A stretch of 64,000 bases of DNA from contig CAWIBO010000005.1 in NCBI GenBank assembly GCA_963834385.1, positions 748,415-812,414 on the forward strand. The letters run 5' to 3'. The notes below the pieces were generated by a model that ran no database searches, was not told the origin of the DNA, and saw nothing but the letters and a program-made list of their open reading frames with translations. Origin of the DNA: an uncultured Verrucomicrobiae bacterium. GTDB taxonomy: Bacteria > Verrucomicrobiota > Verrucomicrobiia > Chthoniobacterales > UBA10450. Below are positions 11,770 through 43,851 of this stretch, one piece after another. Numbering within the stretch: the first letter of the stretch is position 1; every line of letters begins with the position of its first letter. The translations under genes were made by a program, and so were the position numbers.

Positions 11770-12198
11770 TTATTTGTTATCAGTTATTGGTTCTCGCGCG
11801 AAATTCGTTCCCGTTGCCCCGGCGCGTTTAAGATAAGCCATGTAGCCATTCAAGAGACGGACCGCCGTGCTGACGAGATCGCGACCCTCTTCGAGCATCT
11901 CACTCGAAATCATTTTCTCGTCCTGCGCGGCGATCAGATGATCGAGGACTTCCCAGCATGAGCCGCGCGCGTTGCTGCAGAATTTCGCGTTATCGAGATG
12001 ATGAAATCGTCCGTAACCCTCCGCGATATTTGCCGTCGTCGAGCGTGCCGCGCGTAAGATTTGATCCCCCAGACGGTATCGCTCCTCTTTCGGGAGCGCC
12101 GGGATTACGGAGCCGGAAACGAATTTCCGTAACTCACGACACGCCTGCCAGCACTCAAGATCTTCAAAGCTCCGAATGGGGGCACGTTCACCACTCAC
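11770..12198 (-). CDS. Four-helix-bundle protein (TIGR02436 / 23S rRNA IVP-like)
   Basis: SFEDLECWQ...LPKEERYRLGDQILRAARSTTANIAEGYGR...NARGSCWEV. Confidence 0.92.
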   Translation of the reverse strand: MSGERAPIRSFEDLECWQACRELRKFVSGSVIPALPKEERYRLGDQILRAARSTTANIAEGYGRFHHLDNAKFCSNARGSCWEVLDHLIAAQDEKMISSEMLEEGRDLVSTAVRLLNGYMAYLKRAGATGTNFAREPITDNK

Positions 12199-36038: not shown

Positions 36039-37612
36039 ATTCAGCCTGCGCCAACGCGTTTCTCGACATTATAGGGGCGCAACCAGCTTCAACCAGCAGG
36101 TCCTTCCCCGGAATCGCACAACGATCTCGCGAAGCAGCGTGGGAAAAAGTAGCGATGCCACCAGAATCAGCACGCCACCGAACACCAGGCCGTCCAGGCG
36201 AGAAATTGAAAAGCGGGGTGCGCCGGGCTAACGATTCCAGAAGATGAGTGCCCCTGCTGCTAATGTCGTGGCGATGGACAGAGGGCACGATCCTGTTTCC
36301 AAACCAGTTTCGCTCCAGGAGACGCGACGAAATCCCCCCGCGATACAAACAGCCACAAATTGCCCGGCCGCCAGGGCCCAGGCGTAGGAGAGCGAATTAC
36401 CACCTCCGAGCGCAACCAATATGGCGGGTAAACCGCTGTAAACCGGCGCGGCGACGCTAACACCTGGAAAGGAAAGCCAGCCGTAATTGGTTCTTAGCCT
36501 GGAAAATTGCGGTAAAAAGCAACGCGGTTCAGACAGCCCAGCGAAGATGGTGCTGGGGGCAATCAAGGATTCGGCCTCGTTTGATTTCTCCCCATAAAGC
36601 AAACGTAAAAGTTGAAATCCGTCCGAAATTATGAACACCGCACTTGGAATGGAAATAAATAGCATCGTCTTGACGAATAACGTGGCGTGACGCGTAAATG
36701 CTCTGGGTCACCGGCGCTTCGCGGCAAGAGAGGATAAACTGTATCCACCACTAACGCCGCGACCCGGCCCCCCGTGGTTGAATACAAAACCTGGGCTCTG
36801 TTCAGAAGACCGACCGGGGCGTATCCGAGTGTAACAGGCAAGACGGCAGCTTCCAGTATTCCTCGCGCTGCCGTAAAAAGCGCCGAACCCGAAAGCTGCG
36901 CGCCAAACTTCAAGGGCGCGCGATAGCTTTTCCACTGGGGCCATTTCCACCAGGCGGCCGGCGGCTTCCATTTTTCAATCAGCAACAAATAGAGCCCCTG
37001 AGGAAGTCCATGAAGAAGGTTGTATCCAATAATCACCGCGAACGCGCCAGCGCCCGATAACGCGAGAGCAACGCTACTGATCACTGTAACGATGGTGGAC
37101 GCACCCTGCACGAGGCGCAGGGTTCGATAGTTCAGATCGCGCCGCAGACGCGTCAACGCAATCTGATTGGCGAAATCGAAGATGAAACCGAAGGAGGCCA
37201 CGAAAAGAAGGGCGGCCATCGGCCGATAGGGCGACAACGACCAGCAGATTAGCGCGATCGCATTGCACGCAATAAATAAAGCAAGCTGAATGTAAAATCC
37301 GGCACTCCAATGCGCTCCCCAGTCGGGTTCTTCTCCTTCGTGGAGTTGTATCGCCTGCGCTATGAAGTAGCTGGAGCTGAAACAATTAATAAGCGCCGTC
37401 ACGCCGTTCACGGCCGCGACAAGGCCGTACTCCATCGGCGAGAGGAGCCTAACGAGCACGATCATTGTCACGAAGTTCGCAGCCACGAGAAACACCTGGA
37501 AAAAGCCGCTCCAAGCAAGGCCGTGAAGGATTACTTTTCGTCGATCGACCACGGGCGGTTCGGGTGGCAGCGATGACCCGCCCGGGGACAGGAACGCCTC
37601 ATTAGGATCCAT
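36031..37612 (-). CDS. wzx: Oligosaccharide flippase (Wzx family), frameshifted
   Basis: GLAWS...IVLVRLLSPMEYG, multiple TM segments, VYPLL. Confidence 0.82.
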
Positions 37613-37946
37613 AGTAGTGCTGAGGAAGCAGAGGGGACGTCGATCGATGGTCGCGACCGGAATAACACGCATGAGACGTTGCTTCACAATAACAATCCTC
37701 CTCAACGAATTCTTCCTCCTGCTTTCTAGGTCCTCCTTCTATTTCTCCGTCTAAGCTCTGCTCTCGTGTCCCGGATCCCCCTTGTGGCGGCCCAACTGCC
37801 CGATTTCTCGGTGTTCCGGGTCTTCAACGTCGCCGGAGTCGCCAGTTGCGCGGCCTTCCAACCCGCGGAGATTCCCAATCAATAGTTGACGGTGCTGGCG
37901 CTGCGACTGGCAGACCGTCAAGACAGATGGACGGATATTTTCAAAA

Positions 37947-38813
37947 GTGAAAGCGCTCAAACATGGCGTGAAGCACGTTTTATGGCGAGGGCTGCAACTG
38001 ATGAGTCTCGGCCGTGAGGTAGCCGAATTGAGAGTATTGCGTGGCCCCGCGAAAGGTGTTTGGATGGAAATTGATCTTCGCAAAGAAGGCTCCTATTGGC
38101 TCGGAACTTATGACCAGTGGCTATTGAGCCGGATTCATTTGGAACGACTGGTTAAACCGGGCCACGTCGTTTGGGATTGTGGCGCGTACATTGGATATTA
38201 CACGGCTATTCTTCGCCGGTTGGTCGGCGATAACGGCCAGGTGATTACGTTTGAAGCGTCCTCAAAGAACTATCAACGGGTAGCACGACTGCCCGAACTC
38301 AACGGCTGGAAAAATGTGATCGTGCTTCAAAGGGCCATTGGCCCAGATCATTCAGTCATTGAATTTGTGTCCAACCTCGCCGGAGGCAGCGGACCATACG
38401 GGCTGACTAAGACATATTCAGATAAAGACGTGCTCGAAGTCGAAAAAGTGCGGTGCGTGGGATTGGATGAATTGGTTTACGAGCAGCAATGCCCGATTCC
38501 GGACTTTATGAAATTCGATCTCGAGACTGCGGAAGAGTTCGCATTGCATAACGGACCGAGGCTTTTTTCGGAGAAGCGCCCCCTGCTGCAACTCGAATTG
38601 CACGGTGAAAAGGCCCCTGCCGCGACGGGACAATTTCTTGAGAGGTATGACTATGCCGCGTGGGACGTACTCCAGTTGCCGCTTGGCACACCGCCTTTCT
38701 CCCTTTCAGCGTGTCAGTTTTTCAGTTTTTCAGTTGGATCGTTCGACCATGAACGAGCCGAGCACCAGCACGTCCATCAGTTGGAAAAGGAGAAAGTAGA
38801 AAGTCCAAAGTAG
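37947..38813 (+). CDS. FkbM-family methyltransferase, opposite strand to the operon; C-terminus runs into repeats
   Basis: YWLGTYD, WDCGAYIGYY, FEAS, MKFDLETAE, LELHG. Confidence 0.85.
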   Translation: MKALKHGVKHVLWRGLQLMSLGREVAELRVLRGPAKGVWMEIDLRKEGSYWLGTYDQWLLSRIHLERLVKPGHVVWDCGAYIGYYTAILRRLVGDNGQVITFEASSKNYQRVARLPELNGWKNVIVLQRAIGPDHSVIEFVSNLAGGSGPYGLTKTYSDKDVLEVEKVRCVGLDELVYEQQCPIPDFMKFDLETAEEFALHNGPRLFSEKRPLLQLELHGEKAPAATGQFLERYDYAAWDVLQLPLGTPPFSLSACQFFSFSVGSFDHERAEHQHVHQLEKEKVESPK

Positions 38814-39078
38814 AAGACTGAGACAAGGCGGCTTTTCACCCTTTTCGCTCTCCCGACCCTTTCTACCTTCCACCTTCAACTTTCTCCCTTTCGCTCGAGC
38901 AAGAAATTACCGAGAGCGAGGACGTCCATCGGTTGGAGAAGTAAAAGGTGCAAAGTCCAAAGTAGAAAACTGAGCAAGCGGCTTTCAGCCTTTTTGCTCT
39001 CCAGATCCTTTTTACTTTCCACCTTCAACTTTCTCCTTTTCGCTCGAGCAAAAAACTACCGAGAGCGAGCACGTCCAT
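38730..39078 (-). repeat. Tandem array of three spare 3' ends of the carbamoyltransferase gene, about 150-bp period
   Basis: 39078-39025 MDVLALGSFLLERKGES*, 38929-38876 MDVLALGNFLLERKGES*, 38777-38730 MDVLVLGSFMVERSN*; the gene itself ends MDVLVLGSFHIERAPSV*. Confidence 0.9.
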
Positions 39079-39139
39079 CTGGAAGAAGAAGTAGAAAGTG
39101 AAAAGTCCAAATTAGAAGCTGAGCAGGGAGCCGATCGCC

Positions 39140-40973
39140 CTAAACGCTTGGCGCCCTTTCAATATGGAAACTGCCTAACACTAAGACATCCATTTTGGTG
39201 CGGAGAAAGCAGTCGAGGGCTTCTTCCGGGCGGCAGACGACCGGTTCGTTCTCGTTGAAGCTGGTGTTGAGAACCAAAGGCACGCGAGGTCAGGGATCGG
39301 AAGTCGGAGATCAGCTGGTGATAAAGGGGGTTTGTCTCCTGGTGCACGGTCTGGAGCCGCCCCGAACCGTCGGCGTGGCAGACCGCCGGGATCTGGCTGC
39401 GCTTCTCTTCCCGGATCTGGAACACTTGCATCATGAACGGGACGTCGTCCTCCTGCTCAAACCATTCCCCCACGGCTTCCCGCAGGATGGAGGGCGCAAA
39501 CGGCCGGAATGATTCGCGCCGCTTGATCTTGGCATTCAGGATATCTTTCATGTCGGCCCGGCGCGGGTCGCCCAGGATCGACCGGTTTCCCAAGGCGCGC
39601 GGACCCCACTCGAGGCGGCCCTGAAACCAGCCGACGACGCGCCCCTCGGCGATGGCCGCCGCTGTCCGCGTCGTCAGCTCGGTCGAAACGCTGAAAACTG
39701 AAACGCTGAGATGCTGAAACTCCGGATTCCGGCCCTCTCGCAACCCTCGCTCGCGCAACAGCTGCTCGATCTCAGCGTCCGAAAACTCAGGGCCGAGGAA
39801 AGCGCTATCGAGACCTCGTCTCGATAGAAGCTGGTAGTTGGAAGTCGGAAGATTGGCCGATTCTTTCAGCTTTTCAGTTGTCAGCTTTTCAGCTTTTCCG
39901 TCGGCGAGCTTCGCCGCGACGACCGCCGCCGCACCGATCGCGCCGCCGGCGTCGCCGGCCGCGGCCGGCAGATACATCCGCCGAAACGGCGTGTGCAGAT
40001 ACACTTTGCCGTTGGCCACGGAGTTCATGGCGCACCCGCCGGAGAGGGCCAGATTCTCCGACGGTCGTGCCCGATGAGTTGCGTTCAGCAAGGCAAAGAA
40101 CGCTTCCTCGTACATGGCCTGGACCGAGCGCGCGATGTCCTTGTGCTTTTGCTCGAGCGGTTCCTCCTTCGCCCGCGGCGGCCCCAAAAGCTCGGCCAGT
40201 TTGTCGGTGTACAGGATCCCACCTCAGGGGCGCAATCTTTCCAGCTGTAAGAGACGTTGTCGGTGTGATGCCGGAAATAACGCAGGTTAAGCCGGAACGT
40301 GCCGTCGGACTGCACCCGGACAATCTGGCGCATCTGCGGCAGGAACCGCGGCTCGCCGTAGGGCGCCAGGCCCATCACCTTGTATTCGTCTCCATAATGC
40401 GGAAAGCCGATGAACTGGGTGAGCGCCGAATAAAAGATGCCAAGCGAATGCGGAAAATAGACGCGCTGATCAATCGTGATCTCGGGCCCGCTACCCCACC
40501 CGATCGCGGTGCTGGCGAAATCGCCGAATCCATCGATGGAAACGCAGGCCGCCTCCGTGAACCCCGACACCAGGAAAGCCGAGGCCAGATGGGCATGATG
40601 ATGCTCCACGTGATGCAGCTCGGCTGACAACGACATCCCATAGGCCTCTTCCAAGGCTTCCTTGGCGCCGCCGGCGCTCCGGATATTGCGAATCTTCTCC
40701 AGCATCAGCCGCGGATCAGGCCGATGCCGCAGGACAAAGGCCAGCCGACGCCAGTTGTTCACCCCGGGCTTCCGATTGACCGCGATATGGTCAACGTCGC
40801 GCAGGGTGGCTCCCGCCTCCGCGCAGACAGTAATCAATCGCTTGCGTGGGAAGCCCGGCCCAATGTTTGATTCGCCGAAAGCGTTCCTCCTCCACCGCCG
40901 CGACCAGCTCGCCATCCTTGAAGAGGCAGGCAGCGGAATCGCCGTGATAAGCGTTTAGCCCTAAAATGAGCAT
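39140..40973 (-). CDS. O-carbamoyltransferase (NodU/CmcH/TobZ family), frameshifted, with two repeat insertions
   Basis: ILGLNAYHGDSAA, EEERF.R.KH, HHHAH, DGFGD, EYKVMGLAPYG, GDAGGAIGA, EWGPRALGNRS, KRRESFRPFAP, NTSFNENEP. Confidence 0.92.
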
Positions 40974-41021
40974 TTTAGGGCGAAAAGCTGAAATGCTGAC
41001 ACGCTGAAAAGCTGAAATTAC

Positions 41022-41390
41022 TCATGTCGCCCGTTCACTCCGTCGCAACTTGCTGATCATCGTTGTAAAGACTGCCAATAGTTCGTGTGATTCTGTTTTC
41101 AGATGGATAAGCTTTTCGTCCTTAATGTCACACTCCTCGTGGAGTAATTCGAGCCAGAGCTGGGATTCATCGGCTTCTTGAAGCAATCCATCAAGCTTGG
41201 AGCAAAACTCCGCCTCGGAGCGCGCTCGAGAAGCTTCACGGGCGTGCGCGGCCACCGATGTCCCCGCCCGCAAAAGTTGGCGCCCAAGTATTTGTACTTC
41301 TCCGCGCTGCGTTGGGAGCCTGACATACAGTCGAATAATCTCGGAGGCATATCGTTTCGTACGGTCACGCAGTTCTTCAGAAAGTCGCAT
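41022..41390 (-). CDS. Four-helix-bundle protein (TIGR02436-like), bracketed by 37-bp inverted repeats
   Basis: LRDRTKRYA, LGRQLLRAGTSVAAHAREASRARS.AEF.SKL...QEADESQLWLELL. Confidence 0.92.
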   Translation of the reverse strand: MRLSEELRDRTKRYASEIIRLYVRLPTQRGEVQILGRQLLRAGTSVAAHAREASRARSEAEFCSKLDGLLQEADESQLWLELLHEECDIKDEKLIHLKTESHELLAVFTTMISKLRRSERAT

Positions 41391-41439
41391 CGCCAAATTT
41401 CAGCTTTTCAGCGTTTCAGTCTTTCAGCTTTTGCTTTTT

Positions 41440-42237
41440 TCATACGTCTGCCCATCGCGTTTGCAGGGGCGGCAGTTCGGAGCGGTGGCGATAGAGCATG
41501 CGGGCAAGGCTGCCGGCAATGATCAGACGCGGCACAATCATGTGCGGTTGGGTGAATAGCCGCGGCAGCCAACCGACCGCGCGCCGTTCCGCCCACCCTG
41601 GGATCGCTTTTTCAATTCCGGCCAGGAGGGAGACCGCAGCGCCCACACAATGGATCTTCGGTCGGTAAAGCAGGTATTCGCTTAGGTAACGCCCAAGCTT
41701 CTCCTGGACGCCGCCGGTGGTGGCGATGACGATCTGGCTGGGCCGGATCGATTCGATCTCGAGCAATAGTTTGTGGTCTTCCCCGCTGCCGGGGATTTGT
41801 TCCAGCACCCGGAAACTCGACTTGGGCGCGGTGATGCCGCGGGCTTGAAGCCAGGCAGCGATCTTCTCCTGCGCTTCGGTGGAGCCGACCAGCCATAGCC
41901 AGTTCCCCTGCTCGCGCGCCGCTGGATTTGTCAGCAAAGCCTCCATGTACTGAATCCCGGAAACCCGGTGCAGAGCCCGACCGCTGATCCGTTTCCAGAG
42001 CGTTGTAAGAAGACCGCTGTCGGCCAGGATGATGTCTGCCTCCTGCAACGCCCGCCGGTAACCTTCGTCATCGCGGAGCTTGAGCAAAGCCGGTGACGCC
42101 GGAATGACGAGATAGCCGCCAACCTCCTGGAAACGCGTCACGGCTTCGGGCGCCGAAGCCGTTAAAGAAGGAGACGCCGAGGATGGTCTCGTCGGGAACG
42201 ACGCCGGGGCGGTGGGTGGCGGGGAAGCGTCGTTCAT
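41440..42237 (-). CDS. WecB/TagA/CpsF-family glycosyltransferase
   Basis: ADIILADSG, RVSG, GGVQEKLG, CVGAA, GWLPRL..QP. Confidence 0.85.
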   Translation of the reverse strand: MNDASPPPTAPASFPTRPSSASPSLTASAPEAVTRFQEVGGYLVIPASPALLKLRDDEGYRRALQEADIILADSGLLTTLWKRISGRALHRVSGIQYMEALLTNPAAREQGNWLWLVGSTEAQEKIAAWLQARGITAPKSSFRVLEQIPGSGEDHKLLLEIESIRPSQIVIATTGGVQEKLGRYLSEYLLYRPKIHCVGAAVSLLAGIEKAIPGWAERRAVGWLPRLFTQPHMIVPRLIIAGSLARMLYRHRSELPPLQTRWADV

Positions 42238-42525
42238 CCGGGTTCAGCAGGAACCCGTGATCCTAGAACAAACGCCGGGAACTGGGAAGGGATATGGAAG
42301 CTGAGGAAGCTTGGAGCATTCGGGCCTGGCAGGGCCAAACTGCTGAAAACTAGAAGCTGGAAAACTGACATGCGCGGAGGAGCAGCAGAATGAAGGATAG
42401 CTTGGAGCTCGGCTGCTTGGCAGCTAGGAAGCTTGGAAGCTTGGAGCTGCGGGCCTGAAGCGAAATGCTGAAAACTGACAAGCTGAAATGCTGACATGGG
42501 CTGCGGAGCAGCCGGACTCTGTCGC

Positions 42526-43608: not shown

Positions 43609-43851
43609 CTACTTGTCGAGATCGAGTCGCTCGGCGACCCGCAATGCTCCATCGAGAACCTTACCTGTGGGAAGATTGTCTTCCGTCGGGGGACTGGGAA
43701 CCCATTCGCCACGCTCAACGAGGGCGGCCGCATGGGCCATCAACTGTTCGATACTCAAAAGCGGATAATGTCTCACCATCCAGGCGGTGAGGCGGAGACG
43801 CTCATCTGCTGGAAGCGTATCTACCGCCCGCTGTATCTCGCTCAAGCTCAT
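43609..43851 (-). CDS. Small antitoxin-like hypothetical protein (80 aa)
   Basis: MSLSEIQRAVDTLPADERLRL resembles addiction-module components; has its own promoter motif. Confidence 0.6.
   Translation of the reverse strand: MSLSEIQRAVDTLPADERLRLTAWMVRHYPLLSIEQLMAHAAALVERGEWVPSPPTEDNLPTGKVLDGALRVAERLDLDK

What the first reader, a model, noticed from the sequence alone, without database searches (positions are those of the whole stretch)
38730..39193. Stack of three spare, synonymously diverged C-termini behind the carbamoyltransferase gene
Seen: the gene ends ...FLRTK-MDVLVLGSFHIERAPSV* (39193-39140). Three more copies of that last segment follow on the same strand, each starting at the same Met and ending in its own stop: MDVLALGSFLLERKGES* (39078-39025), MDVLALGNFLLERKGES* (38929-38876) and MDVLVLGSFMVERSN* (38777-38730). 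They are spaced 115, 149 and 152 bp apart by facing GAAAGT/ACTTT-like tracts. Three of the four differences between the first two spare ends are synonymous (GTG/GTC, TTT/TTC, AAA/AAG). The third encodes the same MDVLVLGSF as the live end with very different codons (GAC GTG CTG GTG CTC GGC TCG versus GAT GTC TTA GTG TTA GGC AGT). Inference: each copy was once under protein-level selection. The site just before ATGGAYGT may be an integration or recombination point where incoming DNA supplies a new 3' end and displaces the old one, leaving an ordered record of insertions, or a silent-cassette reservoir. No recombinase is visible in the window.
Basis: partly seen in the sequence, partly recalled or inferred. 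Interest (0 to 1): 0.88.

Follow-up and report, generated by a model that had tools for sequence, protein, structure and literature searches.

The report
Stacked leftover ends behind carbamoyltransferase gene
Behind a sugar-coat enzyme gene of a soil bacterium lie three leftover copies of the gene's last codons, most likely pushed aside each time foreign DNA brought in a new gene end; related bacteria show the same scar, a known kind of footprint but here with no integrase gene nearby.

Summary
The four copies are real and at the stated coordinates. They diverge mainly at silent sites: live and last spare differ at 16 of 36 bases yet keep 10 of 12 residues (0 of 20,000 neutral simulations); the first two spares alone are uninformative (P 0.19). 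Displaced ends occur behind 11 of 62 family orthologues, against 1 clear case in 147 other loci, so misassembly is unlikely. In six genomes of four genera the spare starts at the same junction: an ACTTT heptamer tract joined to the internal Met codon. Codon usage gives polarity: the live end looks foreign (0.2 percentile), the last spare native. Best reading (0.55): incoming DNA recombines in the conserved gene and rejoins at the short end, so the resident end becomes the spare and rounds stack. No recombinase match lies in the window. It works like icd/icdC but fails the integrase test. No reads were listed. The scan noted similar stacks on other DNA before. New variant of a known kind.

The parts
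39140..40973 (-). O-carbamoyltransferase gene (PF02543 + PF16861; NodU/TobZ-like), three single-base frameshifts in this assembly
   Evidence: start codon read
39194..39283 (-). Conserved block just before the Met (VPLVLNTSF...FLRTK), host-like codons; inferred left recombination anchor
   Evidence: codon index 0.97 and 0.86; mean pairwise DNA identity in the family 0.77-0.84
39140..39193 (-). Live C-terminal end, foreign-looking codons
   Evidence: index 0.28, 0.22 percentile of 45,849 windows; 3 of 782 C-terminal control windows as low
39079..39139 (-). Linker plus single ACTTT-type heptamer tract, no facing arm; aligns with the linkers of G005, G205, G083, G041
39025..39078 (-). Spare end c1
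   Evidence: codon index 0.46
38935..39036 (-). Hairpin 1 of facing heptamer tracts, from just after the ER codons of c1 to 5 bases before the ATG of c2
   Evidence: -22.6 kcal/mol, z -3.78
38876..38929 (-). Spare end c2
   Evidence: codon index 0.52
38789..38887 (-). Hairpin 2 of facing heptamer tracts (weaker fold)
   Evidence: -16.1 kcal/mol, z -1.21
38730..38777 (-). Spare end c3, host-like codons; inferred oldest, resident end
   Evidence: codon index 0.78, 59th percentile
38700..38733 (-). CTGAAAAA-type tract after c3, supplying its stop
   Evidence: sequence
37947..38813 (+). Convergent FkbM-family methyltransferase ORF whose last codons run antisense through c3
41022..41396 (-). Four-helix-bundle gene (TIGR02436 / PF05635) between facing tracts, directly upstream of the carbamoyltransferase; context, role not shown

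Best explanation
The array is a pile of displaced gene ends left by repeated gene-end replacement during horizontal exchange of a polysaccharide locus. Shown: the copies are alleles from different lineages, ordered from foreign-looking (live) to host-like (c3), and the tract|ATG junction is shared across genera. Inferred step 1: once, a donor's pyrimidine heptamer tract plus the start codon behind it (the same tract leads into the asparagine-synthase gene in relatives) was joined to the enzyme's internal Met codon. Inferred step 2: such DNA carries the gene end twice, so it spreads by host recombination: the left crossover falls in the conserved block before the Met, the right junction in the short duplicated end. 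The donor's end becomes live; the recipient's end becomes the spare and keeps its old neighbours. Inferred step 3: repeating this stacks ends, newest nearest the gene. Units here are empty (115-152 bases); in relatives longer units carry toxin-antitoxin-like cargo. c1 and c2 may be two related arrivals or one arrival duplicated locally. Selection keeps only events that restore the end, which belongs to the conserved C-terminal domain.
For: Silent bias. Polarity and a sharp codon step at the ATG, 0.86 to 0.28; the step is larger in all six shared-junction loci (mean 0.36) than in 56 others (mean 0.07), P 0.0006 with kin not independent. 11 of 62 family loci have displaced ends. Nine spares in six genomes start at tract + NNG + ATG; the same tract type precedes asparagine-synthase starts in L006, L228, L243 and a short form in L216. 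Five tested shared-junction alleles are not one clade (AU p 0.003). G253 has one nearly identical end-linker-tract unit twice, each followed by a different spare. L244/L246 share a junction with different cargo and L229/L233 share a cargo end. G041 has the mirror image, three 5' starts of the next gene between MNT/HEPN-type cassettes. A ComEC match exists in the genome. The last 13 residues align with solved carbamoyltransferases.
Against: The right arm is only about 39 bases at 61-69% identity to family ends, below the 25-35 identical bases cited for RecA exchange (PMC6382021, passages), so that junction must be illegitimate or assisted and rare. No donor-recipient pair was found: the best match of any window copy to another locus's live end is 33 of 39 bases. 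In 2 of 12 comparisons the spare is less host-like than the live end, and this genome's codon table was used for all genomes. Recombination inside the gene weakens the tree test. A genome-wide test of pyrimidine tracts abutting starts was not above background (9 of 121 against about 10% at random). An enzyme acting in trans is not excluded.
Confidence: 0.55

Rival explanations
1. Site-specific integration at a core around the Met codon by a recombinase encoded elsewhere (tyrosine integrase, HUH/RAYT transposase or an unknown heptamer-linked enzyme); the units are minimal hairpin elements or remnants of islands that lost their cargo.
For: Both the codon-usage step and the spare starts fall at the same ATG; hairpin 1 spans exactly from the ER codons to the next ATG; the genome has 3 tyrosine recombinase and 2-3 Y1 transposase matches on other stretches; a four-helix-bundle gene in facing tracts lies next door.
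Against: No such gene in the window; longer displaced ends in relatives begin at several other positions; the first unit has no hairpin; identical core only 5 bases plus GT.
Confidence: 0.22
2. Local tandem duplication of the gene end with its tract (slippage or unequal crossover), followed by ordinary allele replacement of the live end only.
For: Units 1 and 2 are 90% identical over 97 bases; c1/c2 is compatible with neutral drift (P 0.19); the genome has a near-exact end duplication at uppS.
Against: c1/c3 and c2/c3, all spares, also show silent bias (P 0.003 and 0.034); the junction is shared with other genera; c1/c2 has 4 differences in 54 coding bases against 7 in the next 43.
Confidence: 0.11
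3. The spares are kept for a function: translated mini-genes, or a silent reservoir swapped onto the enzyme.
For: Each starts with ATG in the position of a normal start behind a tract; in G005, G083 and G041 the live frame reads through the tract and its stop overlaps the spare's start; icd/icdC shows that deletion between such copies gives a working chimera (PMC13626634, passages).
Against: Spares decay in G083, G253 and G074 and one is frameshifted in G041; 51 of 62 family loci show none in the DNA held; variants are conservative and what follows ER is unconstrained.
Confidence: 0.09
4. Assembly artefact: strain haplotypes strung together.
For: The assembly has indels in this and neighbouring genes; reads not checked.
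Against: Copies differ at up to 18 of 36 bases, far beyond strain variation; each has its own flanks; the same layout is in five other assemblies.
Confidence: 0.03

Closest known systems
icd / icdC at prophage e14 of Escherichia coli K-12 (PMC13626634, passages read)
   Same: Incoming DNA holds the working 3' end; a C-terminal fragment differing largely at silent sites lies downstream; deletion between the copies gives a chimeric gene.
   Different: e14 is a 15-kb excisable prophage; here the intervals are 115-152 bases with no gene, three are stacked, and the junction is tied to heptamer tracts and shared across genera.
Integrase-bearing islands and tandem arrays at tRNA/tmRNA genes (Islander, PMC4383910, passages read)
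   Same: Restored target plus displaced fragment marks each insertion; tandems occur (125 of two or more, 4 of three or more).
   Different: Each array member there has its own integrase; the target here is a protein gene and no integrase is in the intervals or window.
Alternative C-termini of atp6 and cox2 beside homing endonuclease genes in fungal mitochondria (PMC4019555, passages read)
   Same: Foreign C-terminus fused in frame with the old one downstream; codon adaptation used to tell them apart; two extra copies at cox2.
   Different: No endonuclease gene between or beside the copies here.
Homology-facilitated illegitimate recombination (as summarised in PMC6382021, passages read; primary papers not read)
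   Same: RecA-dependent one-sided anchor with a short-match second junction during transformation; fits the long left anchor and short right arm.
   Different: Recalled, not from a call: it usually deletes recipient DNA and scatters junctions; here nothing is lost and one junction is reused across genera.
Intergenic heptamer repeats ending just before start codons (TAACTGA repeats, PMC4679880, abstract and outline read)
   Same: Heptamer arrays ending a few bases upstream of an ATG.
   Different: Other unit sequence; the abstract does not link them to gene-end duplication.

Membership tests
Integrase-mediated island in a gene end (e14/icd, Islander type) | Restored gene followed by displaced fragment on the same strand | tested here: met
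Integrase-mediated island in a gene end (e14/icd, Islander type) | Integrase gene within or beside the interval | tested here: not met
   intervals hold no gene; PF00589 matches at C2 and C5:81595 only, PF00239 none over cut-off; genome 89.6% complete
Integrase-mediated island in a gene end (e14/icd, Islander type) | Identical crossover core shared by the ends | tested here: inconclusive
   5 identical bases plus GT in all four copies
Integrase-mediated island in a gene end (e14/icd, Islander type) | Excision or circular form | not testable with these tools
   no run was listed
Integron cassette array | Adjacent integron integrase | tested here: not met
   no PF00589 match in the window
Integron cassette array | attC sites with conserved R and L boxes | not tested
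   no attC model run; Rfam scan of 37500-42500 gave one sub-threshold microRNA match
Silent-cassette antigenic variation | Incomplete copies of one gene segment beside the expressed gene | tested here: met
Silent-cassette antigenic variation | Cassettes diversified at the protein level and maintained | tested here: not met
   pS above pN in 13 of 13 pairs; decayed spares in relatives
Homing-endonuclease C-terminal replacement | Endonuclease gene between new and old ends | tested here: not met
   the cargo tested in relatives gave MNT/HEPN/HepT or no family
Homology-facilitated illegitimate recombination | One long homologous anchor | tested here: met
   conserved block before the Met, 0.77-0.84 mean identity, perfect runs up to 23 bases
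Homology-facilitated illegitimate recombination | Microhomology at the second junction | tested here: inconclusive
   doubled start codon at the junction in G005, G205, G083, G041; true parents unknown
Homology-facilitated illegitimate recombination | Natural competence and RecA dependence | not testable with these tools
   only a ComEC family match
REP/RAYT elements | Conserved terminal tetranucleotide at the hairpin foot and a cognate RAYT | not tested
   Y1 matches exist elsewhere in the genome; hairpins not compared with their REPs

The most novel reading that the evidence does not exclude
Polysaccharide loci of this soil Verrucomicrobia family run an integrase-free, integron-like accretion system: heptamer-hairpin-bounded units carry a short piece of the neighbouring conserved gene (its 3' end here, the 5' start of the next gene in G041) and use it as a portable recombination arm, so one junction spreads across genera like a selfish element and stacks empty or toxin-antitoxin-like cassettes in time order; the heptamer tracts themselves are the junction-making sites.
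Probability: 0.3. Interest if true: 0.75.

Novelty: new variant of a known kind. Interest (0 to 1): 0.48.

Why it matters
Displaced gene ends are normally read as the mark of an integrase. Here they recur at one gene across a family with one reused junction, no recombinase gene nearby and sometimes no cargo, with the order of events readable from codon usage. If the arm model holds, small cassettes can spread and pile up by host recombination alone, and the long-unexplained heptamer tracts get a testable role at junctions. If not, it is one more scar of horizontal exchange in a variable locus; the scan has noted several of these elsewhere.

Tried and rejected
Reads: the look-up of sequencing runs listed none, so no reads were laid; this is no evidence either way. 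Structure: the model from an 8-sequence alignment had mean pLDDT 37.5 and was not used. First genome-wide tail scan was swamped by shadow frames; second missed the positive control; only one search is used. General tract-to-start test not above background. Rfam: nothing at gathering score. No promoter-like or terminator-like site in 38500-39400. No reverse transcriptase match. A strict pattern for tract plus spare over 401 genomes of the order hit only G000 and G041 and missed known cases such as G005, so it is insensitive. A DNA search with the array over 355 family genomes found only short tract or gene-end matches, no whole unit. Literature searches for this locus or for four-helix-bundle genes with heptamers gave nothing relevant by title and abstract start; the library lacks most subscription papers and no supplements were read. 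PMC8116780 gave only reference-list hits. The idea that every spare matches a live end elsewhere was not confirmed at DNA level (best 34 of 39 bases), though the G010 spare equals the G017 live end as a peptide.

Full report
Observation. The four ORFs lie at the stated coordinates with spacings 115, 149 and 152. The gene is an O-carbamoyltransferase (PF02543 and PF16861) in a polysaccharide locus with WecG, flippase and FkbM genes. Its last 13 conserved residues align with solved carbamoyltransferases, in TobZ to residue 570 of 576, so the repeated piece belongs to the conserved C-terminal domain; that it is indispensable is inferred. The gene carries three single-base frameshifts here, as neighbouring genes appear to; I read them as sequencing errors but could not check. 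The best named relatives are labelled Chthoniobacterales and other Verrucomicrobia.

Selection. Over codons 2-13, live and c3 differ at 16 of 36 bases but keep 10 of 12 residues; 0 of 20,000 random mutations of that size do so. Live/c1 gives 0 of 20,000, live/c2 1 of 20,000, c1/c3 P 0.003, c2/c3 P 0.034, c1/c2 P 0.19. So at least three lineages of the end were coding while they diverged; c1 and c2 may be one lineage (their units are 90% identical over 97 bases).

Order. With a codon table from 1,381 long ORFs of this genome, the 26 codons before the Met score 0.97 and 0.86, the live end 0.28 (0.22 percentile of 45,849 windows), c1 0.46, c2 0.52, c3 0.78. Only 3 of 782 C-terminal control windows are as low. 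The live end is a foreign-looking patch that begins at the ATG, and c3 looks resident.

Spacers. The c1-c2 spacer is one long hairpin of facing heptamer tracts (z -3.8) from the ER codons to 5 bases before the next ATG; c2-c3 folds alike but weakly (z -1.2); live-c1 has only the pyrimidine tract. Heptamer tracts are ten-fold enriched in the window (54 against 5.6 expected) and bracket the four-helix-bundle gene next door.

Relatives. Of 301 family genomes 65 matched the C-terminal domain. I located the live end in 63 of 67 non-redundant family loci and kept 62 with at least 500 bases downstream (about half have only 1.4-1.5 kb; two loci are identical). Eleven of 62 have a displaced end (union: L003, L005, L008, L229, L233, L242, L243, L244, L246, L251, L252). 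Among 147 best-match loci from the genome and metagenome collections (may overlap the family set) one is clear (L067) and one marginal and uninspected (L173). Opposite-strand controls gave 0 hits. pS exceeds pN in 13 of 13 pairs, and the spare is more host-like than the live end in 10 of 12 comparisons, using this genome's table as a proxy.

Two junction classes. In six genomes of four genera (G000, G005, G205, G253, G083, G041; nine spares, the G083 one decayed and found by eye) the spare begins at the Met behind an alignable ACTTT tract, first spare 113-127 bases from the live Met. Four have a doubled start codon at the joint, and the same tract type leads into asparagine-synthase starts in L006, L228 and L243, which suggests that the joint arose by fusing a gene leader to the internal Met. 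These loci show a larger codon step at the Met than 56 others (0.36 against 0.07), and five tested alleles (L251 left out for its rearranged gene; L254, L232 and the short L200 also left out) are not one clade (AU p 0.003; intragenic recombination weakens this). G253 has the same unit twice before two different spares. The other class has longer ends with cargo between; L244 and L246 share a junction with different cargo, L229 and L233 share a cargo end; cargo tested in L246 and L252 is MNT/HEPN-type, and that of L005 and L244 matched no Pfam family. G041 adds three 5' starts of the downstream gene, which I take from recall for an ABC-transporter ATPase (wzt; no Pfam match), between cassettes.

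Machinery. No PF00589, PF01797 or PF00239 match lies in the window; three tyrosine recombinases and two to three Y1 domains lie elsewhere, no reverse transcriptase was found, and a ComEC match is present (genome 89.6% complete). In this genome the effect is gene-specific.

Mechanism. I favour host recombination with a portable short arm (0.55): left crossover in the conserved block before the Met, right junction in the duplicated end, the recipient's end becoming the spare, rounds stacking newest first. Its weak point is the right arm, 39 bases at 61-69% identity, under the 25-35 identical bases cited for RecA (PMC6382021, passages), and no parent pair was found. Rivals: an enzyme in trans (0.22), local duplication (0.11), functional mini-genes or reservoir (0.09), artefact (0.03).

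Comparison. It works like icd/icdC at e14 (PMC13626634, passages), tRNA-island tandems (PMC4383910, passages) and mitochondrial atp6/cox2 alternative ends (PMC4019555, passages), but fails their integrase or endonuclease test. Heptamers before start codons are described (PMC4679880, abstract). My searches showed no paper on this locus or on heptamer-linked end stacks; subscription papers and supplements were not seen. Earlier scan notes report stacks of spare ends behind icd, rodA, glmS, rpsJ and msrA and heptamer-flanked four-helix-bundle genes on other DNA; they are unchecked leads, and they pointed me to the mitochondrial papers and to the serine-recombinase check.

Verdict. Real, ordered and recurrent; a new variant of a known footprint, with the shared, integrase-free junction as the new element. 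Interest 0.48.

Noticed in passing
window 39905-39820 and 39722-39682 (- strand): Facing GCTGAAAA-type and TTTCAGC-type tracts lie in frame inside the carbamoyltransferase gene.
   Followed up: partly
L233, L243, L248, L250, L252, about 100-135 bases before the Met: In these alleles a segment of the enzyme is encoded by an in-frame ACTTTCT heptamer tract; longer displaced ends often begin at this segment.
   Followed up: partly
L252:1428-3026 (G041): Three truncated 5' starts of the same downstream gene alternate with MNT/HepT, small-pair and MNT/HEPN cassettes: the mirror image of the finding.
   Followed up: partly
L246, and by eye L233, L247, L248, L250: The carbamoyltransferase frame runs on into a nucleotidyltransferase (antitoxin-like) gene, giving a fusion.
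   Followed up: partly
window 43612-43851 (- strand): 80-residue ORF of no Pfam family that by eye resembles the cargo behind the carbamoyltransferase in L244 and L251; not aligned.
   Followed up: no
window 37947-38813 (+ strand): The FkbM ORF runs antisense through c3; its one family homologue has the same length but matches only to residue 240.
   Followed up: partly
window 11827-12150 and 41022-41396: Two of the genome's nine TIGR02436 matches lie in this window, which is ten-fold enriched in heptamer tracts.
   Followed up: no
G000:C5:579080-579280 (- strand, outside the window): Near-exact duplication of the last codons of a gene I take from recall for uppS, each copy followed by a palindromic element.
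   Followed up: partly
L007, about 130-280 bases after the Met: A truncated 5' piece of an ABC-permease-like gene sits between the carbamoyltransferase and a flippase.
   Followed up: no
L067: A Burkholderiales-labelled contig has a long displaced end of about 145 codons with toxin-antitoxin-like ORFs between, the one clear case outside the family.
   Followed up: partly
L251 (G083): The gene upstream of the live end appears internally deleted (very long branch, joined N- and C-terminal parts).
   Followed up: no
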